Below, one piece after another: positions 8,968 to 64,000 of a stretch of DNA of 64,000 bases; positions within the stretch are counted from its first letter, which is position 1; every line of letters starts with the position of its first letter. The DNA comes from an uncultured bacterium. GTDB lineage: Bacteria > Patescibacteriota > Minisyncoccia > Phycocordibacterales > CAIRYW01. The stretch lies in contig CAVYBO010000002.1 in NCBI GenBank assembly GCA_963766885.1, positions 365,521 through 429,520 on the forward strand, written 5' to 3'. The notes under the pieces were generated by a model. That model did not search any database and was not told the origin of the DNA. It worked only from the letters and a program-made list of their open reading frames with translations. Made by a program: the position numbers and the translations under genes.

Positions 8968-9882
8968 TTAAGAACTAACACCACCTCCAGTGATTGTGAA
9001 ATTAACCGAATTGCTGGTTGTGCCGTTGCTTGTTACAGAAACCTGATAGACACCAGAAGCAGAATTACCAACAAAAATATTTGAGAGAGTGAAGATAAGT
9101 TGGTTGCTATCAACTATTGGTTGACCAACGAGCCATCCTACTACTTTGCCATTTTGACTAAAGTTCACGGTACTGTTTGTGCTAAAGCCACTACCATAAA
9201 TTGTTACCTTTGTACCAGAAGTCCCAGAAGTTGTTGACAGGGAGGATATAGATGGTTGAGTTGAAACTGAATTACCTACAACTTTTAATGAATAAGAAGC
9301 ACTCGTACCTAAACTGTTTGTAATATAGAGATTATAATTTCCAGCAAGTAGGGCTGGGCTATCTGGTACAGCAAGATTTAAAGATGTTCCATTTGCACTT
9401 GCCCACTCTAGATAAGATGTATTTCCCGAGCTAGAAACAAGATACACGTTAACTATATTGCTTAAGTTTTGTCCATACACATTATCAGTAGATGTTGCAC
9501 CGAATGTATTTGATAGGGATGTAATAACTGGTATAGAAGAGGACGTAGTTTGTGTTGAGCCAGAACCCAATACCCCATCTGCATTACAATGAGGAGGATT
9601 GGTTGCACCGTTATAACAAGCCGCTGGAGTTGAACCCTGCTGTGCAAGTAAAGTTTGCAACTCTGCTTCAAGCTGTTGGAGAAGTTGTGTAATGAGCTGA
9701 ATAATTTGCTGTTTTGTAGAAGCCGCAGTAGAAGCACTTACACTTTGTGCAAACACAGGAGAGAAAACTGCTAAAGACAGAAGTCCGACACCCAAGAAAG
9801 AAATATATTTTTTCATATTTGATAATAATTTAGTAATGTAGTAATTATACACTACTGCCCTACAAAACATATCTCGGTTCAA
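8968..9882 (-). CDS. secreted Ser/Thr-rich surface protein
   Basis: It has a signal peptide (MKKYISFLGVGLLSLAVFSPVFA), a Q/L-rich helical segment and an S/T/N-rich low-complexity region. Its 5' ~190 nt are nearly identical to those of 13306-14865. Confidence 0.6.
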   Translation of the reverse strand: MNRDMFCRAVVYNYYITKLLSNMKKYISFLGVGLLSLAVFSPVFAQSVSASTAASTKQQIIQLITQLLQQLEAELQTLLAQQGSTPAACYNGATNPPHCNADGVLGSGSTQTTSSSIPVITSLSNTFGATSTDNVYGQNLSNIVNVYLVSSSGNTSYLEWASANGTSLNLAVPDSPALLAGNYNLYITNSLGTSASYSLKVVGNSVSTQPSISSLSTTSGTSGTKVTIYGSGFSTNSTVNFSQNGKVVGWLVGQPIVDSNQLIFTLSNIFVGNSASGVYQVSVTSNGTTSNSVNFTITGGGVSS

Positions 9883-9934
9883 GTCCCTAAATGGTGTGAA
9901 CTTTTTATCCTTATTTTACTTAACAAAAACCGAT

Positions 9935-10008
9935 GCGCGCCCTCGTGGACGCTGTTGGAACCAGAATAAGAGAACATAACGGTTATATTTTCATTGCAGA
10001 TTTGAAGA
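9935..10008. repeat. 74-nt intergenic repeat, copy C
   Basis: It is identical to copy B and is preceded by caaaaaccgatgcgcg, a junction also found at 14931-14950. Confidence 0.9.
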
Positions 10009-13305: not shown

Positions 13306-14865
13306 CTAACAGGAATACTTACATTGAGTAGGTGTTAAAACTGAAAGATAAAGCAAATTATTAATTGATACCCCATCATTACTTACTCCAACGCTTACAT
13401 TTCCGTAGCCATAGGAAGCCCCTAGATTAGAAACAGTAAAAGTTAAAGTGGTGCCATTACTAGACACTGATGTCGGTGTAATTTTTTGTCCAGTAAGACC
13501 ATTGATATATATCGCTGTTGAACCATTAAACCCAGAGCCGGTTATTGTAATGTTTGTTGACCCATTGAATGGAACCGTCGTTGTTGATAATGAATATATT
13601 GGAGGATTTGTTGAACTTTGATTTTGTCCTGGGTTGCTAATAGTAAAGTAATTATCACTGTAATCAAAAGGTCCTTCAGCCATCATACTTTGTGGAGGAT
13701 AACCCTCTATTAAAAATTTAAACTGATTTTGATTATCAACGTTTTTTAATGTATATGGACCTCCTGAATAGTTTTGAATATAAGCACTTAGCGATACATT
13801 TGGAATATTCCAGGTGTAGCTTCCAGTATTGTTTGTAGTCACACTTTGGTCAGGTATTACTGCTTGATCCTCATTACCAGCAACTAAGGTAATTCTGACT
13901 TGTGAATAAGCGGAGTTAAAAGCTGGAGATGCATTCCAAGTTATATTGTAAGTATTTCCTTTAATTAAGTTCTCGCCTCCATTAGGTGAAGTAATTGTAA
14001 TAGATGGGGTTTGATTTTGTGTTGAACCAGAAACTGTAAAAGGATACTGATTACTCTTTAATCCATAAATATTTTCAACCTCAACATTGTATTGTCCTGG
14101 GAGTGTGCTGTTTGGAACTGAAAATGAAAACTGGGTATCGCTTGTGGGTTCCCCAGAAGGATTATTTGTTGAAACGTCTGTAATAACAGCACCAGTAGAA
14201 GCATTTAACAAATGTATTTCAATTCCACCATTAACAGAAAATCCTGTTCCATAAACCGTTATAGAACTTCCCATACCAAACTTTGTGCTGTCAACATAGG
14301 CAGTATTTGGAGAGATTGAAGTTATCGTAGGTGCTACTGATGTAGGTGTTCCAGAAATTATTGAGAAAATGCCGCTTTGAGCGCCTACCTCTCCACCTGG
14401 ACTCAATGCTCCGCAATTTCCAACAGCAACAGAATAAGAACCACTTGGTATACTTGAATCAACTATCCAAGAATAATTACCACTGTTAGAAATAGCGTTT
14501 GCTATTGTTTTAACTGAAGTATTATTTGAAAGTAGATTGATTGAGATATTTGGACAAAGTAAATTAGAAGATGTCCATGTAATGTTGTATGTCTGGCCTG
14601 CTGTTAATTGACTTCCTGCAGTTGGACTAATAACAGTAATGGAAGGTTGGGTTGAAGTTGTTGTGGTTGTCGTCTGAGTTGAACCTTGCTGTCCCAACAA
14701 AGTCTGCAACTCCGCTTCAAGTTGTTGGAGAAGTTGAGTTATAAGCTGAATAATTTCTTGTTTAGTAGAAGCTGCAGTAGAAGCACTTACACTTTGAGCA
14801 AATACTGGAGAGATGACAACAAGAGAAAGCAAACCGACACCGAGAAGAGAAATATATTTTTTCAT
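13306..14865 (-). CDS. secreted Ser/Thr-rich surface protein, paralog of 8968-9882
   Basis: It has the same signal peptide and QQLEAELQTLL module. It has a long S/T/N-rich C-terminal region ending in CKYSC. Confidence 0.6.
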   Translation of the reverse strand: MKKYISLLGVGLLSLVVISPVFAQSVSASTAASTKQEIIQLITQLLQQLEAELQTLLGQQGSTQTTTTTTSTQPSITVISPTAGSQLTAGQTYNITWTSSNLLCPNISINLLSNNTSVKTIANAISNSGNYSWIVDSSIPSGSYSVAVGNCGALSPGGEVGAQSGIFSIISGTPTSVAPTITSISPNTAYVDSTKFGMGSSITVYGTGFSVNGGIEIHLLNASTGAVITDVSTNNPSGEPTSDTQFSFSVPNSTLPGQYNVEVENIYGLKSNQYPFTVSGSTQNQTPSITITSPNGGENLIKGNTYNITWNASPAFNSAYSQVRITLVAGNEDQAVIPDQSVTTNNTGSYTWNIPNVSLSAYIQNYSGGPYTLKNVDNQNQFKFLIEGYPPQSMMAEGPFDYSDNYFTISNPGQNQSSTNPPIYSLSTTTVPFNGSTNITITGSGFNGSTAIYINGLTGQKITPTSVSSNGTTLTFTVSNLGASYGYGNVSVGVSNDGVSINNLLYLSVLTPTQCKYSC

Positions 14866-14945
14866 TTATTTAATTTAATACCCGACTGATAATAGGTGTA
14901 TTATACCCCCCCGTTGTTATAAACAATAACAACAAAAACCGATGC

Positions 14946-14961
14946 GCGAGTGGCGGGAATC
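14946..14961. repeat. 16-nt duplicate of the tRNA-Asp 3' end (att-like scar)
   Basis: tgcgcgagtggcggga is identical to 15117-15132. Confidence 0.8.
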
Positions 14962-15118
14962 TTTCCCTCGACTAAAATTTTCTCGTCAGAAAATTTTGTC
15001 TGGGCACCGACTCGCGGTTTTGGCTACTGCCCAAACATCGCTCCGCCGTTCAAGTACCTAAAAAAGCTCCGCTTTTTTCACTCGTGCAAACCAAAAGCCC
15101 CTTTCGGGGCTTTGTCTG

Positions 15119-15192
15119 CGCGAGTGGCGGGACTTGAACCCGTAACCTCTGCCGTGACAGGGCAGCGCTCTAACCAGTTGAGCTACACCCGC
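15119..15192 (-). tRNA. tRNA-Asp (GTC)
   Basis: It folds as a cloverleaf with a 7-bp acceptor stem, anticodon loop CTGTCAC and T-loop TTCAAGT. Confidence 0.9.
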
Positions 15193-17796: not shown

Positions 17797-17830
17797 ACTG
17801 TGTTGTGTTGGAGGTGGGGATCGAACCCAC
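17797..17830 (-). other. orphan tRNA 3' fragment (T-arm plus acceptor 3' strand)
   Basis: The reverse complement reads GTGGGTTCGATCCCCACCTCCAAC, 17 nt beyond the 3' end of tRNA-Met. There is no matching 5' half. Confidence 0.6.
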
Positions 17831-17847
17831 AACTTTCTTATTTTCTG

Positions 17848-17921
17848 TGCCGAAGGTGAGAGTTGAACTCACGACCTGGCGCTTATGAAACGCCCGCTCT
17901 AACCACCTGAGCTACCTCGGC
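17848..17921 (-). tRNA. tRNA-Met/Ile2 (CAT)
   Basis: It folds as a cloverleaf with acceptor GCCGAGG/CCTTCGGC, anticodon loop TTCATAA and T-loop TTCAACT. Confidence 0.85.
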
Positions 17922-18588
17922 AAATTATCGCACTAATTATACCTAAAATTTTATACTGATAATCTGAACTTCTTGATACGCTTAACCTCAACACACCATG
18001 ATAAGAATTGTGATTATCGTAAATCTTTTTACGCGATGTTTTAACATAATAAGTATTTCCAAATGAGCTAGTAGGTAATCCTAGCAAATCAGACCAAAAT
18101 TTCAAAACCAAACCAATCCTATATTTATGGATCTGATTGATTTGAACAACTGGCTTAATCCGCTTTTTTGGTATCAACAAAATTTTAATCAGATATGTAT
18201 AGATAATTTTTATCATTCTGGGATCAGAATTTACAAACATAAATCTGCTTTCCGTCTTAGCACCCTCCGCCCAATAAAGTGCAGCACTCACAAGCTCCAA
18301 CTCTCGTCTTGATATTTTTTTAAATTTATCCATTCCTTCTTTTTTAAAAAAATCAACCCTCTCTTGTTTTTTCTTTCTATTCCTGTCAGCCCCAATGATT
18401 CGTCCTCTATTTCTTCCGTCAATACTATTTTGAATTAAAATTTCTTTTTGCTTTTGAGTCAAAACAACCGAACGAGACCAGAGACTTACGGTACTTTTGG
18501 AAATATTCAAATGTTTTGCAATAGAAGGCATACTCATACCCTTTTGCCTGAGTTTCATAACTTTATTTTTTAATATAAAATTAGACAT
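17899..18588 (-). CDS. HTH-domain protein, possibly a degenerate LAGLIDADG-like homing-endonuclease fold
   Basis: It has an N-terminal HTH (MSMPSIAKHLNISKSTVSLW). The C-terminal half has a LYWAEGAK...FMFVNSDPRMIKIIYTYL pattern reminiscent of LAGLIDADG modules. Its 3' end overlaps tRNA-Met by about 22 nt. Confidence 0.35.
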   Translation of the reverse strand: MSNFILKNKVMKLRQKGMSMPSIAKHLNISKSTVSLWSRSVVLTQKQKEILIQNSIDGRNRGRIIGADRNRKKKQERVDFFKKEGMDKFKKISRRELELVSAALYWAEGAKTESRFMFVNSDPRMIKIIYTYLIKILLIPKKRIKPVVQINQIHKYRIGLVLKFWSDLLGLPTSSFGNTYYVKTSRKKIYDNHNSYHGVLRLSVSRSSDYQYKILGIISAIICRGSSGG

Positions 18589-25052: not shown

Positions 25053-25831
25053 TCGTTTGCGCCGACAGGCTCAACAGCAATTTGTCCTATTTCATCAACC
25101 TTAACTACCCGGCATTTATCTCCAAGGGAAGACTGGATAACGATTATCGCACTGTCATAAGGGCTTGGTGAAACCGATGTGGTGTCAGGTGAGCTTATAT
25201 TTATGATTGCTTCAGGATCCGGCTTTAAAAATCCTATATTAAGCGAGCTATTAGGAGAGCCGATTTTTGCACTACCGACCCCATCGGAACATAAATACCC
25301 ACCACTTATTGTTGAATGAGCGCAAAATCTTCTTATTTTCTGTCCTTGATTTAAGGTAATGTTGTCTGTAATTGAATATTCGGAAAGATTTGGAGTATAA
25401 ACAAAAGGATAAAGTGTATTTCCATCTCCATCACTATATCCAATATCAGAGAATACATAAAAGCCGCTAATCATGGCGCCATTAGTGGTTGAAAAATTAG
25501 CGCCATAGCCAGAATCTCCAACCACAAGTCTATCCTTGGAAGCCGTCCCGTATACTTGAGCTTCTCTGATTGAAAGAGCCACCTCATAAGCTGCATCTGT
25601 TACCAGAATATCGCTTGAAAATTTGGACTGCTTGATCAAAACCACAGCCGTGATAATTACAACGATAGCCACCACCACAAGCATTTCAATCAGAGTAAAT
25701 CCTTTTTGTAAATTAAAAACATCTTTCCTCGAAAAGTACGGAAATCTTTTCTGCTGAAAAGTTTCCTCGTTCTCGCGCCGGCGCGCTGCGAAAGCCTTTT
25801 CTCGGAAATTGTTTTTAATTTTCTTTATCAT
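25010..25831 (-). CDS. minor pilin / pseudopilin (start codon uncertain)
   Basis: It has the KGFTLIEMLVVVAIVVI signal. The leader before the signal is unusually long, so a non-ATG start is likely. Confidence 0.65.
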   Translation of the reverse strand: MIKKIKNNFREKAFAARRRENEETFQQKRFPYFSRKDVFNLQKGFTLIEMLVVVAIVVIITAVVLIKQSKFSSDILVTDAAYEVALSIREAQVYGTASKDRLVVGDSGYGANFSTTNGAMISGFYVFSDIGYSDGDGNTLYPFVYTPNLSEYSITDNITLNQGQKIRRFCAHSTISGGYLCSDGVGSAKIGSPNSSLNIGFLKPDPEAIINISSPDTTSVSPSPYDSAIIVIQSSLGDKCRVVKVDEIGQIAVEPVGANDCSAGTNGTYSPGS

Positions 25832-35202: not shown

Positions 35203-36926
35203 TTATGCCAGAGTGCTTATTTCTTCAAAAGGAATTTGATGATCAAGGGCTTTGATGATTGCGTCTTCTTTCATTGTGAGCATTCCCTCTTTTCTAACTA
35301 CTTTCCAAATTTCAGTTTCAACAGGACTTGCAAGAATAACACTTTCCAATTCTCTACTCATTTTAAAAACTTCAAAGACAGCTAGCCTTCCGTGAGTGCC
35401 CTTAGGACACTCAGTAGTGGGTGTCGCCTCAAGCACCGTTCTCTTTTTTGACAAATCGATTTTAGAATCTTGAGGTAAATCCACAAACTGTTTGTCTATC
35501 ATTACTTGAATACTTCCTTCTACAGGGATCTCTTTGGCACCTTCAGGACATATTTTTGCAACAAGACGCTGCGCCATAGATAAAATCAAAGTCGGAGCGA
35601 TAAGATATGGGTCGATGCCCATATCCACAAGTCTTGGAATTACGCCGATTGCATCGTTGGTGTGAATTGTCGAAAATACAAGGTGACCAGTAAGCGCGGC
35701 CTGGATTGCAAGAGCTGCGGTTTCCTTATCTCTGATTTCTCCAACCATGATTATATCCGGATCTTGACGAAGTGTGGTACGCAACCCATTGGCAAAGGTA
35801 TAGTCTATCTCCGGTCTGATTTGCGATTGGCTCATTCCTTCAATGCTGTATTCCACAGGATCTTCCAAAGAAAGCACGTTATTGGATTCTTTATCTACTT
35901 CTTCTATCATGGAATACAGCGTTGTGGTTTTTCCAGATCCCGTAGGCCCAGAAATCAAAATCAATCCGTAAGGCTTGTGAATGGCTTCTTTTACTAATTC
36001 CATATTTCTTGGCGATAAATCCAGATCCTTCAAAGATTTAACACCTCTTGAGTCTGGTCCAAAATTCTCATCACAACCTTTTCTCCATAATATGTTGGAA
36101 ATGTTGAAACACGAAAATCAATTTTTCTACCGTCAATTCTTGCGCTGAATCTGCCGTCTTGAGGCTTTCTTTTTTCATCAAGCTTCATATCAGATAGAAT
36201 TTTTATTCTTGCCACAACAGCATTGAGAACTTTTGCAGGTAAAATAAGCGATGTGTGCAAAACGCCGTCCAACCTGAATCTAACTCTGACCTTATCAGCC
36301 ATTGGCTCTACATGCACATCAGACGCTTCACCTTCGATGGCATAACGAAGAATTGTGGCAACAATTTTTTTAACTGGCGCATCTTCTATAATATTTACAG
36401 AATTTATTTTTTTGCCGACTTCCTCGTCCTTAATATTGACCATCTCTCTTTCTTCGTCTGAAAGATCATCTTCTAATTCAGAAAGAGCTTTTGTGACTTC
36501 TCCAGATAGACCTTTGTAAGAAAGCATGGCTTTTTCATAGTCCTCCTTTGAAATAAGGAAAATTTTATAAGGAACATTGTTTTTTGAGGTAATGAAGTTA
36601 ATCGCGTCGCGGGCATCCAGATTTTCCGGGTCTACTACTCCAACTTCGAGAGCGCCGGCTTTTAAGTCTAAGGGCAGTATTTTGTAATAGTTTGCAGAGT
36701 CTTCTGGAATAAACTTCAAAATTTCCATCGGTATATTAGGGCTAGACAAGACTCTGGTCGGCACACTCATATATTGACCTTTAGCTTCAAGAATGTCTTT
36801 ACTGCTTACTCCGTATGATTTTAAAATATCTTCAAGTTGTTGGGGTGAAGCGGCTTCTGATTGTGCTTTTTTTGCGTCTTCAGAGGTTATTACCCCCTTT
36901 TTTAAAAGAATAGTTAAAAAATCCAT
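35203..36926 (-). CDS. pilB: type IV pilus assembly ATPase (GspE family), interrupted by a 1-nt indel in an A/T run (36032-36034)
   Basis: The N-terminal ORF has the GSPII_E N-domain and ends in RILDQTQEVLNL. The C-terminal ORF has EAIHKPYGLILISGPTGSGKTTT. Adding one T restores EVLNLLKDLDLSPRN. Confidence 0.85.
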
Positions 36927-42013: not shown

Positions 42014-42155
42014 AAAAGACTGATTCTGATATATTTTATATCAGAATCTGGCTTTGGGACGCCGATTCGAAAGACGCAGACGCGACGGCGTCGAGCCGGG
42101 GTCGCAGAAATTTTCAGCAGAAAATCATCTGTGACCGAATCCCACTGTGATTATT

Positions 42156-42245
42156 GGAGAGATGGATGAGTGGTTTAAATCAGCAGTTTACTAAACTGCC
42201 GAGCCTTAACAGGCTCCGAGGGTTCGAATCCCTCTCTCTCCGCCA
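42156..42245 (+). tRNA. class II Ser-like tRNA with an unusual anticodon loop (TTACTAA, nominal anticodon ACT); CCA is encoded
   Basis: It has acceptor GGAGAGA/TCTCTCC, D-loop GAGTGGTTTAA, anticodon stem GCAGT/ACTGC, a long variable arm, T-loop TTCGAAT and discriminator G followed by CCA. Confidence 0.65.
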
Positions 42246-53476: not shown

Positions 53477-53497
53477 CTATGCGTGTGGAGGGGCTCG
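53477..53497. repeat. 20-nt duplicate of the tRNA-Ile 3' end (att-like)
   Basis: tatgcgtgtggaggggctcg is identical to 53618-53638. Confidence 0.8.
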
Positions 53498-53619
53498 GTC
53501 ACAGATAAATTTCTGCTGAAATTTTCTTCGACCCCACCTCGCGCCGTCGCGCTCCGGCTTTCGAGCCGACTAACGCTTTGCTTCGCAAAGCTAGTCAGCG
53601 CATACTCGCTTCGCTCGTA

Positions 53620-53692
53620 TGCGTGTGGAGGGGCTCGAACCCCCGACCGGACGAGTATAAGTCGTCTGCTCTACCAACTGAGCTACACACGC
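53620..53692 (-). tRNA. tRNA-Ile (TAT)
   Basis: It has a perfect acceptor GCGTGTG/CACACGC, anticodon loop CTTATAC and T-loop TTCGAGC. Confidence 0.8.
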
Positions 53693-56636: not shown

Positions 56637-57334
56637 CACTACAGGAATATTTCTCCTCAAATTTAGTTTATACATTGGTAACAAATAGTTTCGAGAGGTT
56701 CTAACCGTCACTTTTAAGCCATAATCGAAAACTATACAGTTTATAGACCAATTCTAATTGGAGCTTATTCTGTCTGCTTTAAAGAGGTTCTAACCAAAAC
56801 AAAGTCATAATCAAATATATTGTGTATAACGGCACTTGACTAACTTATACAAAAAGTATAAGCTTAGTAGGTACTTTGAAAAATCAAGGCAACTGGATAG
56901 TCATTAAAGACGGTTATTTCAGGCAGAATAAAAACTGCCTCAACTTTCCTCTATAGGTACTAGTAGGAAAAGAAAATTCACCGGCACATCTGTGCATTAA
57001 TGTCTCTATTTACAAGGCTCATATATTTTTGGTCATAAGCTCAATTGATTCATGGCGTGTCAATGTCGTGTCATCTTTGCGAGTCAGGAATTTTTTTTGG
57101 TCAGAATTGGATGGGATAATTATAGAGATAGTTATATGGTAGGGGTTACTCAACGATCGAATGGTCAGTGAGTTTCACAACAAAACGCTACCACCGAAAC
57201 AAATGACCATTCAATCTGCGAGTCACCAATTAATAGAAAGAATTAATTCCCAAATAAACAAAATATGAAAAATTATTGGTATTCGTCACACAACAGTATT
57301 GCTTTGAGCGTTTTGTATGTAAGGGAGGCAAATT

Positions 57335-57412
57335 ATGGTAAGACAGCATCTAATCCGAATTCTCCAGATTTTAGTCTGGATTTTAAGGATTGTTCTGGAC
57401 ATCATAAGCTAG
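57335..57412 (+). CDS. small hydrophobic ORF (25 aa) with a strong Shine-Dalgarno; candidate leader or small peptide
   Basis: AAGGGAGG sits 6 nt before the ATG. The peptide is MVRQHLIRILQILVWILRIVLDIIS. The complement of the Shine-Dalgarno (gcctccctt) lies right at its stop. Confidence 0.3.
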   Translation: MVRQHLIRILQILVWILRIVLDIIS

Positions 57413-57437
57413 CCTCCCTTTAATCGTATTCTATATT

Positions 57438-57761
57438 ATGAACAACTTTCAAGATTTACTAAAAAAAATAAGAAATAAAGCTGACCTGACTCAAGAAGAT
57501 TTAGCAAAAGCTCTTGGAGTTTCAACTGTACTTATTTCTATGATTGAAACGGGACAAAAACAAGTTTCGAGAAATTTTATTGAAAACCTAGCTGAAAAAT
57601 TATCAGTTCATCCTAGTTCAATCACACCTTTCTCGTTTATTGAAAAAGATATGGATATCAAAAAGCTTTCAGCTCTTGAGCGAAACTTAATTAAAGCTGG
57701 AAGTAAATTCCAAGATTATTTAATTACTACGAAAGCGAAAAAACTAAGAGAGTATGTCTAA
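57438..57761 (+). CDS. XRE-family (Cro/C1-type) HTH transcriptional regulator
   Basis: It has the HTH LTQEDLAKALGVSTVLISMIETGQ. Its stop overlaps the RT start, indicating translational coupling. Confidence 0.75.
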   Translation: MNNFQDLLKKIRNKADLTQEDLAKALGVSTVLISMIETGQKQVSRNFIENLAEKLSVHPSSITPFSFIEKDMDIKKLSALERNLIKAGSKFQDYLITTKAKKLREYV

Positions 57762-58764
57762 CAACAAGCGCTACCCGAACATCTCTATACGAAGTAAAAA
57801 CGAAATTGCAAAACGTATTTCGTCATCCTCTTTTTCTAAAAATGAAGCGTTAGATTTAATTAATGATGTTATTAAAAATTTTGACAGCTATTGGTATGAC
57901 AGTAAACGTTCCGAACCTGAAAAAAATAAATATGTAAGAAGCGCTGCAAAATCTCCTAAACTTAAAAAGCTTCTTGAGCTTATAAATGCAAAAATCCTTA
58001 CTCCGTATGATTATTTAATACCAGAATTTATTTATGGAGGAATTTCAAGAAGGAATAATATTCAAGCCGCTTATCACTTACTCGGCAACCAGCGAAATCG
58101 CACATTACTTAAGTTAGACGTGCAAAGCTTTTTTGAACAGATTACAAAAGAAAGGGTTTTCCACTTCTTTAATAATAAATCTCAATGCACTGTCGAAGCA
58201 TCAAATTTACTTGCTAAGTTCTGTTGTGTACCACGTGGTCCTAAAAATTCAGGGTCAACTGATATTATTCTTGCACGTGGCTTCGCAACTTCTTCTAGAC
58301 TTGCTGTATGGTGTAATCTCGATACTTTCGAACATTTGAATTGGAAAATTAAAAAGAAACTAAAAGGACACGACGCGCAAGTAGCAATATATGTCGACGA
58401 CATAGGAATTAGTGCAAGCAAAGTAAGTATTGAACAAATGGAAACTGCAAAAGAATTGGCTATAAATATATTGGAGAAAAGTGATTATAATCAATCTTTA
58501 CCCGTACATAGAGATGCTCGGAAAAACAAGATTATTCAATTTAATAAAGGTGCTGAACACTTAGGAATAAAACTTGGTAGAACCAAGTTAACACTTGGTA
58601 ACAAATCACGATCAAAAATAGATAAAATCAAAGAAGCAATCAAAGAAGCGGAAACAGAAAATGAAAAAAATACTTTGAGAGAAAAATATAAAGCTCATCA
58701 TCGCTATAGACAACAAGTAAAGAATATCGCGGTTATTAAAGATATAAGAAAAAAATATGACTAA
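57754..58764 (+). CDS. reverse transcriptase (compact, retron/defense-RT-like)
   Basis: It has RT motifs: YGGISRRNNIQAAYHL (motif 2, NAxxH-like), LLKLDVQSFFEQI (motif A), VPRGPKNSGS (motif B region), IYVDDIGIS (motif C, YxDD) and HLGIKLG (motif 7). Confidence 0.75.
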   Translation: MSNNKRYPNISIRSKNEIAKRISSSSFSKNEALDLINDVIKNFDSYWYDSKRSEPEKNKYVRSAAKSPKLKKLLELINAKILTPYDYLIPEFIYGGISRRNNIQAAYHLLGNQRNRTLLKLDVQSFFEQITKERVFHFFNNKSQCTVEASNLLAKFCCVPRGPKNSGSTDIILARGFATSSRLAVWCNLDTFEHLNWKIKKKLKGHDAQVAIYVDDIGISASKVSIEQMETAKELAINILEKSDYNQSLPVHRDARKNKIIQFNKGAEHLGIKLGRTKLTLGNKSRSKIDKIKEAIKEAETENEKNTLREKYKAHHRYRQQVKNIAVIKDIRKKYD

Positions 58765-58822
58765 AAATATTATAAAAATACTTAGTGCGCTAGCATTGAT
58801 TAGTCTCATCTTTTTGTACACT

Positions 58823-59947
58823 GTACTTCCCCCATTTCATCAGACACTAACCTTGTTAGCTGAATTGTATTCTCGAGCCGACGAAAGTGCAAATTGCACG
58901 GGTGACATTTTGAGGGCGGTATGAATCCTGGTGTTGTTGTAAATGTAAATTGTTTGGTAAATAGCGAACACCAGCTCTCCCAATGTTTTGAATCGGGAAG
59001 AATCCCCAAGATCAATTTTGAATTTGTCGTAGAAAGATTCCTGGTACCCATTCTCCCACGGACAACCTGGAGCAGAACGAGAAATCAATACCCCGACGGT
59101 CTGCAGCGCCTGAATGAACACCTCCGAGTTGTATTCACTGCCGTTGTCAGAGTGGAAAATTTTTGGTCTGGGATTATTTTGAAGAGCCGACATGAATGAT
59201 GCTAAAACCAATTGAACAGCATGGGTGGTGTATACTGACAACCCAACAATTTTTCTGGTGAACAAATCTTCGACTGTAGCCACATAGATGGTTTTGTTTT
59301 CAAAGGGTATGCGGGTGAAGTCTGTCACCCAGATATGATTTTCATATTGGGTAAATAACTTTGATATTCTTCGATTTTTTCCATCTTCTACCACGTCTGC
59401 GATATGCCTTGATACCGAAAAGTTTCATCACTCGTTCAATCGGTTTGTGGTTTCTTTTGAGGGCAAGGGCGATGCGTGGAGAACCATATGAAGGATGCTC
59501 TCTGAGAACTTCTTCAATCTGACATTTTAGTTCCCAATCTTTGTCAGGTTTCTTTGGTTTGTAGTAGAGAGTGCTGCGGGAGATCCCAAGCTCTCTGGCC
59601 CGAAGAGTTTTGGGAGTCTCACTATTTTCTTTCAATTCTTTTTTTGGGTTTCTGAGAGCTTTAGAGTAATTTCTCCAACTAACTGAAGCAGTTGAGCATT
59701 TTCTCGCTTGAGTTTAATTACCTCTGAAAGAGTTGGCTGACCTTTGGTTTTCTTGGCTATCCACCCATATATGGTGACATCGCTGATGCCATGCTCTTTG
59801 GCTGCTTGGACTACACTGATACCATCATTCTTGATTCTGTTAATAATCTGCTCCTTTATTTCAGGGGCTATTTTTTGTCTTTTCATATGCTTGTATATTA
59901 GCTTCTAATTATACAAGGTTGGTGTATGAAATTTGGGGGGAGGGCCA
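58823..59947 (-). mobile_element. IS3-family insertion sequence with a degenerate orfB
   Basis: Its imperfect terminal inverted repeats are tgtacttcccccatttcat...ccttgt and acaagg...atgaaatttggggggagggcca. orfA (59632-59886) is an HTH transposase. orfB is split (59342-59635 and 58840-59394) and carries the DDE motifs HSDNGSEY and PWENG. Confidence 0.75.
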
Positions 59948-59972
59948 TTGCTTGATGATGGGTACATATTAC

Positions 59973-60428
59973 TTAGAAAGATTCAGTAAAGTCAGCAGGG
60001 TTAAAAATATCAGCAAAATCTTTTGTTTGTCCGCAGAGTTCTGTATTTTTTAGTTGTTCTTTTGAGAAAAACTCTAGCTTCTCACATTCTTCTGACGGAG
60101 TAAAATCAAGATTTTCTAATTCTATTCGGTAAGCCACCACAAAGGAATAATACCAACCTAATTTGCGCGCATTGTTCTCAAATCTGTGTGGCCACACGTA
60201 CACTGGGGAGTCTGATATTTTTGTAACTTTTAATCCCATCTCTTCTTTTATTTCTCTTTTGAAACCAGATTTTATGTCTTCACCAAAATCTAGACCTCCG
60301 CCCGGTAATTCCCATTTTCCGCCCAATTCTTTTGATTCAAGGGCTAAAAGAACCTTACCATCTCTAACGCAGAGACCTTTGATCGTAACTCTATAGAAAT
60401 TGTCTGGGAATCTTTCCGAGTGTTCCAT
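59973..60428 (-). CDS. NUDIX hydrolase
   Basis: It has a Nudix box: GGGLDFGEDIKSGFKREIKEEMGL. Confidence 0.7.
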   Translation of the reverse strand: MEHSERFPDNFYRVTIKGLCVRDGKVLLALESKELGGKWELPGGGLDFGEDIKSGFKREIKEEMGLKVTKISDSPVYVWPHRFENNARKLGWYYSFVVAYRIELENLDFTPSEECEKLEFFSKEQLKNTELCGQTKDFADIFNPADFTESF

Positions 60429-60678
60429 GTTAGTAGGATTAGTATACCAAAACCAATATTGTTTTATAGCTTTGCTCCTTTGTTTTTAGCGTATATACTT
60501 ATTTCACAACCAAATATTCCGAAGACCTAACCCTTGAAAACCTCAAGGCACGGTCACAAATCGACGTGAATAAAAAACCTATCATTAGGGCGTTCACGTC
60601 GTTATACAGGGAAACTTGTATAGGAGCTTCGGCTCCCCTAGTGGTAGGCTTTTTGTTTCTCCACTAGGACACACGATT

Positions 60679-61290
60679 ATGTATAACGATGTCTTAGAAC
60701 AAATAACTGAAGACTATTTCAAATCAAAGGGATATTTTACTTTGCATAATGTTCCGTATTCTCTTTCAAAACAAACTGCTTCAGATATTGATGTCATTGG
60801 CATTCACCCTACAAAGAAAGATATCTCAAAAGTCATTGTCGTCAGTTGCAAGTCTTGGGATTCAGGAGTCGATCTCAAAGCATTGTTAAATTTGATAAAG
60901 GCAGCGCCAGACAAAAAGATAAAAACAGGAGTGATGCGATTGGAGAGATTCAAAGAAGTGATAAACAAAGAGTGGATCACTGCTCTCAAAGCTAAAGTGT
61001 TTGAACTCACAGGACAGAAGAAATTTAAACTATATTTTTCTGCAACTAAATATAAAAATCTTGATTTAAAAAATCAGTTTATTGAATATTGCAAATCCAC
61101 ACTTACTGACTGCCCTGTCGAACTCATTTCTCTTGAAGAAATGTTGTTGGATATGCAAAAACAAATCAAAGACAATAAATCTAAAAGTCCTCTAAAGTCT
61201 TACTCTGCTCGTATTATTCAACTTATCAACCAGAGCGGAGGTGAAATTTTGTATTCAGGAGAGATTTACAAATCAAAAGGTCTGAGATAA
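60679..61290 (+). CDS. hypothetical protein, possible PD-(D/E)xK nuclease fold (Hjc/Mrr-like)
   Basis: SDIDVIGIHP...KVIVVSCKSW resembles the PD...(E/S)xK core. The start was chosen at the internal ATG at 60679. Confidence 0.35.
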   Translation: MYNDVLEQITEDYFKSKGYFTLHNVPYSLSKQTASDIDVIGIHPTKKDISKVIVVSCKSWDSGVDLKALLNLIKAAPDKKIKTGVMRLERFKEVINKEWITALKAKVFELTGQKKFKLYFSATKYKNLDLKNQFIEYCKSTLTDCPVELISLEEMLLDMQKQIKDNKSKSPLKSYSARIIQLINQSGGEILYSGEIYKSKGLR

Positions 61291-61324
61291 AAGTGTGATG
61301 TTTATAAGTTAATTTAAAAATCAT

Positions 61325-61516
61325 ATGAATGAATTAGGAGGAATATTAGTAGGAGTGATATTAATAGCAATCGTTGGATCTATATATTTTACTCCTACAA
61401 TCTATGCTTATCATGCCAATCATAAAAACAAAGAAGCTATTTTTATTCTAAATCTGCTTCTCGGTTGGACAGTTTTGGGGTGGATTGGAGCTTTGATCTG
61501 GTCTGCTACAAAATAA
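61325..61516 (+). CDS. superinfection-immunity (Imm-like) small membrane protein
   Basis: IFILNLLLGWTVLGWIGALIWS matches the conserved LNLFLGWTGIGWI..LIW core of T4 Imm-type proteins. It has two transmembrane helices. Confidence 0.55.
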   Translation: MNELGGILVGVILIAIVGSIYFTPTIYAYHANHKNKEAIFILNLLLGWTVLGWIGALIWSATK

Positions 61517-61563
61517 AAAACCCACTGGAGATCGGAGCCAGTGGATCTTTGTAATTATATATC

Positions 61564-62076
61564 TTACGCTATCTTTTTCAAATATTTTGGAAACACTTTA
61601 TAAAAATTCTCTGTTTCTGGGAGCATCCATTTAAAACAGTCTTGCCATTGTTCTTCATTATTTTGGAGAGGTTTCTTTTGAATAGTTAGAGTGGCTCTGC
61701 TTACCCACATACTTGGGATGTTTCTCCACTTTAATTTCTTTCCCAAATCTTTTTCAATATCTGCTCTGTGTTTTTTTAGTTTAAAGTAAAACTTTGGGTT
61801 CTCTGGAATAGACAGTTCTATTTCGCATATTCCTTTTCGCAGAAAGACTTTAGAAGCTATATGTGCTTCTTTTTTATTAAGCTTGATATTCATGAAGTGA
61901 TAGGGTTGGCTTTTTGGCAGTTTTAGCTTTGTTTTGTTTAACTTTGCGTATTTCTTGAAATCAGTCCAAAACTTAAGTTGTTTCTTTTTGTGTATTTCTC
62001 TTTCTTCTTTTGTGAATATCCTCCTTGCCATATATGGAGATATCTTAACATAGCGGTTTTGTGGAGTTATAAACAT
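61564..62076 (-). CDS. hypothetical protein (DUF4268-like?)
   Basis: It is 170 aa and K-rich. It has weak resemblance to proteins encoded near restriction-modification systems. Confidence 0.3.
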   Translation of the reverse strand: MFITPQNRYVKISPYMARRIFTKEEREIHKKKQLKFWTDFKKYAKLNKTKLKLPKSQPYHFMNIKLNKKEAHIASKVFLRKGICEIELSIPENPKFYFKLKKHRADIEKDLGKKLKWRNIPSMWVSRATLTIQKKPLQNNEEQWQDCFKWMLPETENFYKVFPKYLKKIA

Positions 62077-62125
62077 CTATTCTAACCAGAGATGCTAAAA
62101 GATTAATGATATAATTTAGACATCA

Positions 62126-63394
62126 ATGGTTGTTCAAATAAAGAAAAAAAGAGATAAATATCTAAGAAAAGATGACTTCTCTTGGGATTATCGTGGTGAG
62201 AAAACAAAATCATATACTCACGGAATTCATACCTACCCAGCTATGTTTATCCCTCAAGTTGCTAGGAGACTTTTAGAAAAATATAGTAAAGAAGGTGATA
62301 CTATCTGTGATATTTTTTGTGGTTCTGGAACTGCATTAGTTGAAAGTAAACTCTTAGGAAGAAATGCTTATGGCATTGATCTTAATCCTCTAGCAATTTT
62401 TTTAGCAAAAGCAAAAACAACACCAATCAATCCAATTGTCCTGAATCACACATATGCAAAATTATTAAAAAATATTTCAGAAATTGAGGAAAGTAATTTG
62501 ATAAAGCCAGATTTTAAAAACATAGATTTTTGGTTTAAAGAAAAAGTCATTACTCAATTATCAAAAATCAATAAAGCGATAGGACAGATTCACGATGAAA
62601 GTGTTCGTAACTTTATTACAGTTGGGTTTAGTGAAACTGTCAGACACTCATCAAACACTAAAACTCATGAGTTCAAGTTAGTAAGAAACAAAGGAGAGAA
62701 GTTAGAAAATCATGATCCTGATGTTCTGGGTATTTTCAAAAAGTTTACAGAAAGAAATATTGCGGGCATGACAGAATTTTATAGGGACACTAGCTCTAGT
62801 TGGATAAAAGCAATTTATGGGGACTCTTCTAAAGATAATGATATAAAATCTTCTTCTATTGATCTGATCATAACTTCTCCACCATATGGTGATAGCAGAA
62901 CAACTGTGGCATATGGACAATTCTCGAGACTATCATCACAATGGATTAACATATTTGAAAATCCAAATGACGCTTCTGGTGTAGATAACAAGTTACTTGG
63001 TGGTAAAGCGACAAAAACATTAATTCATTCTCTAGCCTCTAAGAAGTTAGCTGAGTCACTTGAAAAAATTGCGTCTCAAGATGAGACTCGGGCAAGAGAT
63101 GTTTTAAGTTTTAATATCGGCTTAAATGATTGCTTAAAACAAGCCCACAGAATTCTAAAACCAAAAAAGTATTTCTGTCTTGTTATAGGTAATAGACAAG
63201 TAAAACAAGTAAGAATCCCGACAGATTTCATTATTGTAGAATTAGCTCAAGCTATCGGCTTCTCGTGTGAAGAAATAATCGTGAGAAATATCCCCGGAAA
63301 AAGAATGCCTATGAAGAATTCTCCAACAAATAAGATTGGTGCACTTGAAGAGACAATGAACAAAGAAAGTATAGTGGTGCTGAAGAAAATCTAA
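62126..63394 (+). CDS. type II DNA methyltransferase (N6-adenine or N4-cytosine, alpha-class order)
   Basis: It has motif I (DIFCGSGTALVE) and motif IV (IITSPPYGD). Confidence 0.8.
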   Translation: MVVQIKKKRDKYLRKDDFSWDYRGEKTKSYTHGIHTYPAMFIPQVARRLLEKYSKEGDTICDIFCGSGTALVESKLLGRNAYGIDLNPLAIFLAKAKTTPINPIVLNHTYAKLLKNISEIEESNLIKPDFKNIDFWFKEKVITQLSKINKAIGQIHDESVRNFITVGFSETVRHSSNTKTHEFKLVRNKGEKLENHDPDVLGIFKKFTERNIAGMTEFYRDTSSSWIKAIYGDSSKDNDIKSSSIDLIITSPPYGDSRTTVAYGQFSRLSSQWINIFENPNDASGVDNKLLGGKATKTLIHSLASKKLAESLEKIASQDETRARDVLSFNIGLNDCLKQAHRILKPKKYFCLVIGNRQVKQVRIPTDFIIVELAQAIGFSCEEIIVRNIPGKRMPMKNSPTNKIGALEETMNKESIVVLKKI

Positions 63395-64000
63395 ATAATT
63401 TGACTATATTCATCAAATATATGAAGAAAGTCTCTTTTGCTAATTCTAAAACCCGTACCATGATCATGGTATTTTCCTTTATTCTTCCCGCTTCTGTATA
63501 CTCCAATTCTAATATCAATTTTTAGTTTATCTTCTTCAATAGCTTTCTTAAACTTTTTTATATTCAAACCTGACAGAAGAAATGCTTCGGTATAATGGAA
63601 TTCTTCATTCACCGATTTTTTCTCTCCCCTAGTTTCAGCAAAGACAAGTAGTATTTTATCCGATTTAGTTTTTAGAATGTCATTAAAAATACTTACTGGC
63701 CAACATGCTTCGATTTTATGATTATTTTCTAATATTAATTTATCATCAGTAAATTTAATTCTAAGGCCTTGATTATTCGTACGAGAACCGTACATAGTAG
63801 AGTGTAAATTATATTCACCATGAATATCTAAATATTTGTTTTTCTCAAAAAGTACCTTATTCACACCACGGGGCACAGGAGATTTTGTTGCTATGGTAAG
63901 CATACTATCGGATCCGATTCTTTTTGATTTTAACTCAATTTCACCAACATCAGGTACTTGAAGATTATTTTCCGGTATACCTAAGAGATCTTCGAGTGTT
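63391..64000 (-). CDS. type II restriction endonuclease, partial (continues beyond the window end)
   Basis: It is convergent with the methyltransferase and overlaps its 3' end by 4 nt. The upstream in-frame extension contains PDVGEIELK (PD...ExK). Confidence 0.5.
   Translation of the reverse strand, partial: TLEDLLGIPENNLQVPDVGEIELKSKRIGSDSMLTIATKSPVPRGVNKVLFEKNKYLDIHGEYNLHSTMYGSRTNNQGLRIKFTDDKLILENNHKIEACWPVSIFNDILKTKSDKILLVFAETRGEKKSVNEEFHYTEAFLLSGLNIKKFKKAIEEDKLKIDIRIGVYRSGKNKGKYHDHGTGFRISKRDFLHIFDEYSQII

What the first reader, a model, noticed from the sequence alone, without database searches (positions are those of the whole stretch)
14946..15192. tRNA genes followed by a short GC-richer spacer and a duplicate of their own 3' end (two instances)
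Two tRNAs show the same architecture:
- tRNA-Asp: a 16-nt 3'-end copy lies 155 nt downstream.
- tRNA-Ile (53477-53692): a 20-nt 3'-end copy lies 120 nt downstream.

The spacers are unusually GC-rich and share short motifs (cgctccg(c)cg(t)ttc, cgagccgac). These look like att scars of integrated or excised elements, or very small tRNA-targeting mobile elements.
Basis: seen in the sequence. Interest (0 to 1): 0.5.

Follow-up and report, generated by a model that had tools for sequence, protein, structure and literature searches.

The report
Small structured inserts behind tRNA genes
The two duplicated tRNA ends mark copies of a widespread, apparently uncatalogued family of about 100-200-base non-coding structured elements that sit just behind tRNA and tmRNA genes in Patescibacteria (CPR bacteria), each carrying both a copy and a complement of the end of the gene it follows.

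Summary
Exact 16-nt (tRNA-Asp) and 20-nt (tRNA-Ile) copies of the T-loop-to-3'-end segment lie 158 and 120 nt downstream, across spacers of 47-54% GC in a 38% GC window.

The spacers are not random scars. Both share one architecture:
- a hairpin;
- X', a stretch complementary to the tRNA 3' end;
- a conserved core;
- X, the tRNA 3'-end copy. X' and X pair to close a three-way junction.

The core (P2, P3, GGG linker, long P4 ending GUGAC) is supported by covariation.

The window holds four copies.

The family is common in Patescibacteria: about one copy per 17 kb in 80 related genomes, and at least 120 metagenome hits. It follows more than 20 tRNA species and tmRNA, and rarely a 5S rRNA fragment or the rplL terminator. 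Copies also occur nested or in tandem.

Orthologous sites are polymorphic. At two tmRNA loci, two copies bracket a one-gene cargo.

It has no Rfam, phage, plasmid or IMG/VR match, and I found no paper describing it.

Best reading: a small non-autonomous integrative element that works as a folded single strand. The mechanism and the enzyme are unknown.

The parts
15118..15192 (-). tRNA-Asp(GUC), host gene of element 1; no encoded CCA
   Evidence: ARAGORN; Rfam tRNA 65.5 bits
15117..15132 (-). X(up): the 3' part of tRNA-Asp plus 2 nt of trailer; this is the segment that is duplicated
   Evidence: repeat family D8
15094..15113 (-). Hairpin AAAGCCCC-GAAA-GGGGCTTT followed by TGGTTT. It looks like a terminator but the simple terminator scan did not call it
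   Evidence: sequence; fold; scan
15049..15087 (-). X' of element 1. GCACGAGTG is the complement of the acceptor 3' strand plus trailer. It is followed by an inserted hairpin (15060-15078) and then AGGTACTTGAA, the complement of the T-loop and T-stem
   Evidence: sequence; the MFE fold pairs 15079-15087 with the 3' copy, z = -5.5
14959..15048 (-). Core of element 1, a divergent subtype: P2 is CGGC/GUCG, with a GGA...GA loop, the P3 hairpin, a GUG linker and a long AU-rich P4
   Evidence: CM R1 scores only 15.2 bits, E = 0.14. It is 64% identical overall, and near-identical in the core, to the element after tRNA-Glu in L132
14943..14958 (-). X(down): the 16-nt copy of the tRNA-Asp 3' end, forming the 3' strand of the closing helix P1
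53620..53692 (-). tRNA-Ile(UAU), host gene of element 2
53562..53619 (-). Linker and X' of element 2. It holds a hairpin that pairs the tRNA end with GTATGCG (53596-53605, the complement of the acceptor end plus trailer), an inserted hairpin (53569-53595) and CGGCTCG (53562-53568, the complement of the T-loop and T-stem)
   Evidence: sequence; CM alignment
53498..53561 (-). Canonical core of element 2: AAA / GCC / GGA / GCGC-GACG-GCGC / GA / GGU / GGG / P4 GUCGAAGAAAAUUUC-AGCA-GAAAUUUAUCUGUGAC
   Evidence: CM R1 82.9 bits, E = 5e-18; covariation
53478..53497 (-). X(down): the 20-nt copy of the tRNA-Ile 3' end (C56 to discriminator +2)
42015..42150 (+). Its parts are a hairpin at 42022-42048, X' GGGACGCCGATTCG at 42056-42069, the core at 42070-42135, and a decayed copy CGAATCCCactgtg at 42136-42149
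   Evidence: exact pattern hit; sequence; CM R1 72.1 bits, E = 2e-15
25729..25803 (-). Element 4, a degenerate core with its own closing helix (GAAAAG/CUUUUC). It lies between a prepilin-peptidase-like gene and a pilin gene and is not next to a tRNA
   Evidence: CM R1 34.4 bits, E = 3e-6; context

Best explanation
Each duplicated tRNA end is the outer edge of one copy of a family of small (about 100-200 nt), non-coding, structured insertion elements of Patescibacteria.

Anatomy, which is shown directly:
- the host gene's 3' end (X);
- a hairpin, often terminator-like, which travels with the element;
- X', a stretch complementary to X that includes a few trailer bases and is often interrupted by a small hairpin at the T-stem/acceptor boundary;
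- a core made of a 3-bp P2, a GGA/GA internal loop, the P3 hairpin, a GGG linker and a long AU-rich P4 ending in GUGAC;
- a direct copy of X.

X' pairs with the copy of X and closes a three-way junction. In the main class X runs from C56 of the T-loop to 0-3 nt past the discriminator. In a second class X is only the last 4-8 nt (CACAA or GACAA).

Inferred working: the element is a non-autonomous integrative module that acts as a folded single strand of the tRNA-sense strand, most likely DNA. The X':X helix matches the target by base complementarity, insertion duplicates the target segment, and a recombinase or nuclease encoded elsewhere (not identified) does the chemistry.

The conserved T-loop sequence shared by all tRNAs and tmRNA would explain the target preference. 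Because the element is flanked on both sides by tRNA sequence, it could also spread between strains by transformation and homologous recombination. That last step is speculative.
For: Family and structure:
- Covariation: 87% of cells paired against 74% in shuffles; covariation score 0.368 against 0.129; 0 of 500 shuffles reach it; slid controls fall to 37-46%. The middle pair of P2 occurs as C-G 23, A-U 13, G-C 7, U-A 5.
- RNAalifold independently recovers P2, P3 and P4.
- One P4 pair is G.U in 47 of 50 sequences, so the fold is specific to the tRNA-sense strand.

X' goes with X:
- Among tRNAs where my simple pattern found no core, a complement of at least 8 nt is present in 14 of 24 that have a downstream 3'-end copy, but in only 15 of 112 that have none.

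Target range:
- More than 20 tRNA species and tmRNA.
- The rplL stop codon plus terminator, with an 18-nt copy and a 10-nt complement (L150).
- A 5S rRNA fragment.

Turnover:
- Only about 12 of 70 orthologous tRNA-Ile(UAU) genes in the ftsH loci carry a copy.
- L106 (filled) against L069 (empty).
- Tandem and nested copies.

Hairpin is part of the unit, and cargo exists:
- In L035 and L022 two near-identical copies of hairpin-X'-core, each followed by X, bracket 420-640 nt holding one ORF, downstream of tmRNA.

No adjacent recombinase in the window.

A terminator-like hairpin often sits directly before X' (L150, L035, L166, window Asp). This argues that the core is not mainly a read-through RNA.
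Against: - No movement has been observed. No excised form, donor/recipient pair within one population, or enzyme has been identified.
- Copies at different tRNAs within one genome or contig (window; L109, L170) have diverged, with compensatory changes. There is no sign of a recent burst, which is also what a host-selected RNA would look like.
- X' is often much more diverged than the downstream copy. In L203 the X copy is 29/29 identical while the best ungapped match of the X' complement is 11 of the first 18 positions; in L111 the X copy is 22/22 while X' matches 11 of 18. Simple one-step generation of both does not explain this.
- How X' could be re-set for a new target such as rplL is unexplained.
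- G.U pairs and covariation fit RNA as well as single-stranded DNA.
- Enrichment of DNA-favoured GAA-triloop hairpins in the linkers is weak (2.6-fold).
- One copy (25729-25803) sits in an operon 5' UTR, where an RNA role is plausible.
Confidence: 0.55

Rival explanations
1. A host-useful structured RNA made from the 3' trailers of tRNA, tmRNA or rRNA transcripts. It could be a 3'-ETS-type small RNA, or a processing, termination or stabilising element. X':X would simply be its closing stem, and X' would transiently pair with the pre-tRNA 3' end.
For: - Strong structural covariation and a sense-strand-specific G.U pair.
- Always co-oriented with, and just 3' of, highly expressed stable-RNA genes.
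- Within-genome copies have diverged like old paralogues.
- Window tRNA-Ile has no terminator between the tRNA and the element.
- One copy lies in a pilin 5' UTR.
Against: - Occupancy of a given orthologous site is only about 15-25%.
- Strong terminators often precede X' and move with the unit.
- Tandem, nested and cargo-flanking arrangements are common.
- Several unrelated core types share the same X'/X logic.
- The closing stem pairs across the discriminator and trailer, so it does not mimic a tRNA acceptor end.
- Nothing explains why the stem must copy the neighbouring gene.
Confidence: 0.2
2. Ordinary att scars. On this view the small spacers are what is left, next to attL or attR, after deletion of integrase-carrying islands or prophages that integrated at the T-loop sublocation of tRNA genes.
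For: - The identity block runs from the T-loop to the tRNA 3' end, the elements lie downstream of the gene, arrays are tandem, and tmRNA is also a target. From established knowledge of tRNA/tmRNA-integrating elements, these are their classic features.
- Cargo-bearing forms exist.
- A large serine recombinase lies within about 1 kb of a copy in L098, L167 and L191, and occurs in 6 of 120 loci overall.
- An 18-nt direct repeat brackets 5 kb of accessory genes beside the Asp copy.
Against: - No integrase adjoins any window copy.
- The core is conserved with compensatory changes across very many genomes, which decaying scars would not be.
- X' has no counterpart in tyrosine-integrase att sites.
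- There are no hits in 2.9 M IMG/VR contigs with two patterns, nor in the phage and plasmid collections.
- Non-tRNA targets exist.
Confidence: 0.1
3. A guide RNA for a nuclease or recombinase encoded elsewhere, in the manner of a TnpB omega-RNA or an IS110 bridge RNA. The conserved scaffold would be followed by a 3' guide (X), and/or X' would read the tRNA gene.
For: - The conserved scaffold ends in an invariant GUGAC and is followed by a variable 5-29-nt segment identical to the neighbouring target.
- The complement X' could read the other strand. TIGR-Tas shows that dual-strand guides exist in CPR-associated systems (PMC12045711).
Against: - X and X' pair with each other, so neither is free.
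- No TnpB, IscB, IS110 or Tas gene was seen among the window ORFs scanned or as a recurrent neighbour.
- A guide against the cell's own intact tRNA gene would be self-targeting.
- Terminators often precede the scaffold.
Confidence: 0.1

Closest known systems
Integrative islands and prophages at the tRNA/tmRNA 'T-loop' sublocation (attL/attR identity blocks)
   Same: The direct repeat equals the tRNA 3' part from the T-loop to the end. The insert lies 3' of an intact gene. Tandem occupancy occurs, and tmRNA is also used.
   Different: - The insert is 100-200 nt with no integrase.
- It has a conserved folded core with covariation.
- It carries an internal complement (X') of the repeat.
- It also uses non-tRNA sites.
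- It is absent from viral and plasmid collections.
Bacterial MITEs and REP/BIME-type repeats (for example Correia elements, REPINs)
   Same: Small, non-coding, multi-copy, intergenic, foldable and mosaic/modular, with a flanking duplication and no transposase of its own.
   Different: - The 'inverted repeat' (X'/X) is taken from the target and differs at every site, instead of being a fixed terminal repeat.
- The duplication is up to 29 nt and its ends are set by tRNA landmarks.
- No parent IS or RAYT is known.
Integron attC sites and gene cassettes; folded single-strand attP of CTX-type IMEX elements
   Same: - Structure rather than sequence is conserved.
- The fold is strand-specific.
- The helix imitates or pairs the target.
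- No recombinase gene is carried.
- One-gene cargos are bracketed by the sites (L035, L022).
- Arrays occur at a fixed chromosomal site.
   Different: - There are no R''/R' (RYYYAAC/GTTRRRY) boxes; the conserved junction is GUGAC.
- No IntI or dif site is involved.
- The fold is a three-way junction, not a bulged hairpin.
- The target is a tRNA-like 3' end.
- The recombinase is unknown.
IS200/IS605 ends and PATEs, where internal guide bases pair with the cleavage sites
   Same: Single-strand hairpins, with an internal stretch that base-pairs with the sequences marking both element boundaries. The topology guide-hairpin-cleavage site matches X'-core-X.
   Different: - IS608-type guides are 4 nt and give no duplication; here pairing is 5-25 nt with duplication.
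- No Y1 transposase or TnpB was found in the window.
tRNA-like structures (tmRNA tRNA-like domain, viral TLS, minihelices)
   Same: The closing helix reproduces the acceptor and T-stem base pairs of the neighbouring tRNA. A small hairpin often emerges at the position of the D/anticodon domain.
   Different: - Pairing continues through the T-loop bases, the discriminator and the trailer.
- There is no free NCCA end.
- The T-loop is replaced by the core.
- It is not detected by tRNA models.

Membership tests
Any Rfam 15 RNA family | Match to a curated covariance model at or near the gathering score | tested here: not met
   Only tRNA, tmRNA, rRNA and LOOT were found. Nothing covers the spacers even at E <= 10 in the window, nor in 14 other element-bearing loci (E <= 5).
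tRNA-integrating genomic island or prophage (att scar) | Direct repeat made of the 3' part of the tRNA gene | tested here: met
   16-nt and 20-nt exact repeats starting in the T-loop region.
tRNA-integrating genomic island or prophage (att scar) | Integrase gene and kb-scale cargo between the repeats, or a demonstrable remnant of them | tested here: not met
   Only 120-158 nt of non-coding DNA lies between the repeats. No recombinase was found among flanking ORFs. Cargo forms in L035 and L022 carry one small ORF and no integrase.
tRNA-integrating genomic island or prophage (att scar) | The same sequence present as attP on a phage or plasmid | tested here: not met
   No true hit in IMG/VR with two core patterns. 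No BLAST hit in 50,697 phage or 72,556 plasmid records.
MITE | Fixed terminal inverted repeats shared by all copies | tested here: not met
   The paired ends X'/X differ at every site and follow the host gene.
MITE | Short, non-coding, multi-copy, with a target-site duplication | tested here: met
   Four copies in 64 kb and about one per 17 kb in relatives. Flanking duplications are 4-29 nt.
Integron attC / gene cassette | R''/R' core sites (RYYYAAC ... GTTRRRY) and a bulged hairpin | tested here: not met
   The junction bases are AAA/AAG on the 5' side and GUGAC on the 3' side, and the fold is a three-way junction.
Integron attC / gene cassette | An IntI integrase and an attI platform | tested here: not met
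   No tyrosine recombinase appears among the window ORFs scanned. Whole genomes could not be searched.
TnpB/IscB omega-RNA or IS110 bridge RNA | Encoded within or next to the effector gene; guide segments unpaired | tested here: not met
   No such gene is adjacent in the window or recurrent in 120 loci. X and X' pair with each other.
Known self-cleaving ribozymes (hammerhead, twister, pistol, hatchet, hairpin, HDV-like) | Match to the family model or core motifs | tested here: not met
   No Rfam hit. The junction sequences (RRA / GGG / none) differ from the hammerhead core. Catalysis itself cannot be tested here.
Group I intron (reported in Patescibacteria tRNAs, PMC13011429) | Interrupts the tRNA (anticodon loop) and has the P3-P9 catalytic core | tested here: not met
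   The host tRNAs are intact. The insert is 3' of the gene, about 75 nt of core, with no Intron_gpI hit.

The most novel reading that the evidence does not exclude
The elements may be a new class of base-pairing-guided mobile element. On this reading a protein-less unit of about 100-200 nt carries a conserved three-way-junction core. That core acts either as a handle for a still-unknown host-encoded or trans-encoded enzyme, or as a catalytic RNA or DNA. The internal guide (X') selects the 3' end of tRNA-like genes by complementarity, and insertion duplicates exactly the paired target segment. This would make it a programmable homing system distinct from group II introns, IS200/IS605, IS110 bridge RNAs and integrons.
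Probability: 0.2. Interest if true: 0.9.

Novelty: new variant of a known kind. Interest (0 to 1): 0.7.

Why it matters
- Scale. If the description holds, Patescibacteria genomes of about 1 Mb carry dozens of copies of an uncatalogued structured element (about one per 17 kb) at the ends of their tRNA, tmRNA and some other genes.
- Annotation. It explains GC-rich 'spacers', partial tRNA copies and false 'att sites' in CPR genomes, and it should be added to RNA and repeat libraries.
- Mechanism. An element that carries both a copy and a complement of its target, with a duplication whose ends are set by tRNA landmarks, has no exact counterpart among known mobile elements. It points to an unknown single-strand recombination, or RNA-guided, mechanism in organisms with very few recognisable recombinases.
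- Genome evolution. The cargo-bracketing forms suggest a cassette-like route for gene gain in reduced genomes.

Tried and rejected
- Hammerhead or other known ribozymes. A GAUGAG...CGA tandem-GA junction occurs in a subgroup of elements, but the core motifs and Rfam models do not match.
- Strict tRNA mimic (a minihelix processed by RNase P/Z and CCA-adding enzyme). Rejected because X' pairs through the discriminator and trailer, and short-X forms (CACAA) cannot mimic a tRNA.
- Derivation from a tandem tRNA gene copy. Rejected because X' is complementary to the T-loop bases, which a tRNA 5' half is not.
- X' inherited from a previous host tRNA. Rejected for L111, where X' includes the complement of the local non-tRNA trailer.
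- Excess of G.U over A.C mismatches in X':X as a test of strand or RNA. Inconclusive (105 versus 85, a noisy alignment).
- GAA-triloop enrichment as a test for single-stranded DNA. Only 2.6-fold, so weak.
- IMES-2 (Rfam). A 14-bit hit over the Asp element is chance (E = 0.25, not seen elsewhere).
- TIGR-Tas arrays. The 36-nt unit architecture is different.
- Search for a partner protein among 120 loci. This found only housekeeping genes, a large serine recombinase (6 loci) and an HTH+LAGLIDADG-like gene (5 loci). Neither is consistently linked to the elements.
- Literature. Four searches found no description.

Full report
OBSERVATION

ARAGORN finds tRNA-Asp(GUC) at 15118-15192(-) and tRNA-Ile(UAU) at 53620-53692(-). 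A k-mer scan and the repeat finder confirm two exact copies of the tRNA 3' ends:
- TCCCGCCACTCGCGCA (16 nt) at 15117-15132 and again at 14943-14958.
- CGAGCCCCTCCACACGCATA (20 nt) at 53618-53637 and again at 53478-53497.

Both copies lie on the tRNA strand and downstream of the gene. Both start in the T-loop region and end 2 nt past the discriminator. Chance expectation is about 1e-8 or less. The spacers are 47.5% and 54.1% GC in a 37.8% GC window. Folded as single strands they are more stable than shuffles (z = -5.5 and -3.1).

ANATOMY

Read on the tRNA strand, both spacers have the same order of parts:
1. A hairpin directly after the tRNA. In the Asp element it looks like a terminator.
2. 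X', a stretch complementary to the tRNA's own 3' end. It is split by a small inserted hairpin into a part complementary to the acceptor 3' strand plus trailer (Asp GCACGAGUG; Ile GUAUGCG) and a part complementary to the T-stem and T-loop (Asp ..ACUUGAA; Ile GGCUCGAA).
3. A GC-rich core.
4. X, the tRNA 3'-end copy.

X' pairs with X and closes a three-way junction. The core consensus, parsed from 95 family members, is:

J12 (AAA/AAG) - P2 (3 bp) - GGA - P3 hairpin - GA - P2' - GGG - P4 (GUCGCGGAAUUUUUC-AGCA-GAAAAAU-A-UCCGUGAC), then X with no linker.

The second motif falls in non-equivalent positions of the two elements.

A REAL, CONSERVED FOLD

On a 50-sequence alignment (A2) the proposed helices behave as follows:
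- 87% of cells form standard pairs, against 74% in shuffles.
- The covariation score is 0.368 against 0.129, and 0 of 500 shuffles reach it.
- Sliding the 3' partners drops pairing to 37-46%.
- The middle pair of P2 occurs as C-G (23), A-U (13), G-C (7) and U-A (5). Four P4 pairs show many double changes.
- One P4 pair is G.U in 47 of 50 sequences, so only the tRNA-sense strand folds well.

RNAalifold, run independently, recovers P2, P3 and P4. The upper part of P4 was fixed by the search pattern, so that part is not evidence.

THE WINDOW HOLDS FOUR COPIES

The pattern TTTCAGCAGAAANNNANNNGTGAC hits the Ile element and a second site at 42112-42135(+). That site is a complete element between tRNA-Ser(GCU) and the next tRNA.

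A covariance model (R1) scores as follows:

| Element | Bits | E-value |
|---|---|---|
| Ile | 82.9 | 5e-18 |
| Ser | 72.1 | 2e-15 |
| Fourth copy, 25729-25803(-) | 34.4 | 3e-6 |
| Asp | 15.2 | 0.14 |

The fourth copy is degenerate and lies between a prepilin-peptidase-like gene and a pilin gene.

The Asp element is a divergent subtype: a 4-bp P2, a GUG linker and a different P4. Its nearest relative is the element after tRNA-Glu in L132, which is near-identical from GAAC(G/A)GCGGAGC to GAGUCG(A/C)GGG. So the two spacers are related, but as different subtypes of one superfamily.

DISTRIBUTION

FtsH relatives place the window in Parcubacteria/Paceibacteria-like Patescibacteria.
- In those 80 loci (677 kb) R1 finds 40 copies. 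Many lie just downstream of tmRNA.
- About 12 of 70 orthologous tRNA-Ile(UAU) genes carry a 3'-end copy 100-200 nt downstream, and the rest do not.
R1 finds 98 copies in 72 of them.

Hosts include tRNAs for Asn, Arg, Ala, Val, Ser, Leu, Glu, Gly, Lys, Thr, Trp, Tyr, Ile, Pro, Gln, His and others.

In the main class X begins at C56 and ends 0-3 nt after the discriminator. In a second class X is only CACAA or GACAA at the very end of the tRNA, with a matching UUGUG or UUGUC as X'.

Non-tRNA sites exist:
- The last 18 nt of rplL plus its terminator, followed by a 10-nt complement, the core and an 18-nt copy (L150).
- A 5' fragment of 5S rRNA in the 23S-5S spacer (L117/L094).
- Insertions inside other elements (L164, L155, L124).

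Other core types share the same X'/X logic: family B with GUACUGA plus a CUGUAAG hairpin, and a GAAAGACUUUUC type. Among tRNAs where my simple pattern found no core, a complement of the 3' end is present in 14 of 24 that have a downstream copy, but in only 15 of 112 that have none.

TURNOVER AND CARGO

- Tandem units occur in L085, L038, L076, L009, L132 and L194.
- L106 (filled) and L069 (empty) are orthologous tRNA-Ile sites that differ by the element and a 4-5-nt GACA duplication. Their flanks are only about 78% identical.
- In L035 and L022 the order is tmRNA - hairpin-X'-core - X - 420-640 nt with one ORF - partial X - a near-identical hairpin-X'-core - X.

The last arrangement shows that the hairpin belongs to the repeated unit, and that the units can bracket a one-gene cargo. 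The L035 ORF has no Pfam match.

WHAT IT IS NOT

- No Rfam family matches.
- There are no hits in phage or plasmid records. IMG/VR gave none either; the three pattern hits there are one coding sequence.
- No recombinase flanks the window copies. The neighbours are FtsH, RecG, SmpB, pilus genes and similar.
- The window does contain an rve fragment and a small reverse transcriptase, but both lie in a defence-type island behind tmRNA, far from the elements.
- Four literature searches found no description. The closest papers concern group I introns at position 35/36 of Patescibacteria tRNAs (PMC13011429) and TIGR-Tas dual guides (PMC12045711). Both are different things.

MECHANISM

Shown:
- The architecture.
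- The strand-specific conserved fold.
- The dependence of X' and X on the host gene.
- The preference for tRNA-like 3' ends.
- Polymorphic occupancy.
- Tandem, nested and cargo forms.

Inferred: a non-autonomous integrative module. Its folded single strand presents an X':X helix that matches the target, and its insertion duplicates the paired target segment. The enzyme would be supplied in trans.

The terminator-like hairpin that travels with the unit and sits in front of X' suggests that the core is not mainly a read-through RNA, which favours single-stranded DNA. The nearest analogies are integron attC sites, CTX-type folded attP, and the guide/cleavage-site pairing of IS200/IS605 ends. The T-loop sequence shared by all tRNAs and tmRNA gives a natural seed for target choice.

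Unexplained:
- X' is often far more diverged than the downstream copy (L203, L111).
- How X' would be re-set for new targets.
- The absence of near-identical copies at different sites within one genome.

These points keep a host-RNA reading alive at about 0.2. Classic att scars and a guide-RNA reading each get about 0.1.

VERDICT

The family appears to be undescribed, and its logic has no exact known counterpart. Mobility, the active strand chemistry and the enzyme remain to be shown.

Noticed in passing
window 17806-17830 (-): Sixteen nt after tRNA-Met (17847-17921) lies a T-arm plus acceptor 3' fragment of a different tRNA (GTGGGTTCGATCCCCACCTCCAACA). No core accompanies it. It is a bare tRNA 3' remnant, like those after tRNA-Ile in L010, L020 and L072.
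   Followed up: partly
window 17899-18588 (-): A 229-aa ORF with an N-terminal HTH and a LAGLIDADG-like motif (LYWAEGAK) abuts or overlaps the 5' end of tRNA-Met. A homologue gives a weak PF14528 hit. Homologues sit directly upstream of tRNA-Ile or tRNA-Gly in L074, L016, L192 and L125. This may be a free-standing homing-endonuclease family that lodges next to tRNA genes.
   Followed up: partly
window 42156-42245 (+): This tRNA-Ser has anticodon ACU (A34) and an encoded CCA end, unlike the other tRNAs examined here. It lies directly after the element that follows tRNA-Ser(GCU).
   Followed up: no
window 9627-9939 and 14676-14948: An 18-nt perfect direct repeat (AACAAAAACCGATGCGCG; on the tRNA strand it spans the last bases of the Asp copy plus the flank) and an adjoining 190-nt repeat of 83% identity bracket about 5 kb of accessory genes: NYN, CYTH, an AAA_33/zeta-like kinase, GrpB and an Ig-like secreted protein. 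This is either a larger island inserted at the same tRNA-Asp end or a segmental duplication.
   Followed up: partly
window 56638-63903: Behind tmRNA lie about 800 nt of non-coding DNA, then an XRE-type HTH gene and a 336-aa reverse transcriptase (57754-58764), an rve integrase fragment, NUDIX, a LOOT RNA (60524-60636), an Mrr-like nuclease, DUF4268, a DNA methylase and an MvaI/BcnI-type endonuclease. It looks like a defence island at the tmRNA 3' end.
   Followed up: no
window 35203-36926 (-): A PilB-type T2SSE ATPase is split into two overlapping ORFs (36030-36926 and 35203-36033) within a type IV pilus/competence cluster.
   Followed up: no
L117 700-880 (identical in L094): In the 23S-5S spacer an element with a 5' hairpin interrupts a duplicated 5' fragment of 5S rRNA just upstream of the intact 5S gene. 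There is no copy/complement pair of the target here.
   Followed up: partly
L035 2100-2880 (-) and L022 1990-2960 (-): Two near-identical element copies downstream of tmRNA bracket a 420-640-nt segment holding one small ORF. In L035 it is 84 aa with no Pfam match. In L022, read from the sequence and not scanned, it is a roughly 160-aa ORF on the opposite strand.
   Followed up: partly
L011, L031, L038, L076; L090, L160, L147: Other core types occupy the same position and have the same copy/complement ends. Family B has a long stem, then GUACUGA and a hairpin with a CUGUAAG loop. Another type has GAAAGACUUUUC...GAAAAGUACC.
   Followed up: partly
L098, L167, L191 (also L088, L118, L181): A large serine recombinase gene occurs in 6 of 120 pattern-selected loci. 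In three of them it lies about 1 kb from a copy and is divergently oriented.
   Followed up: partly
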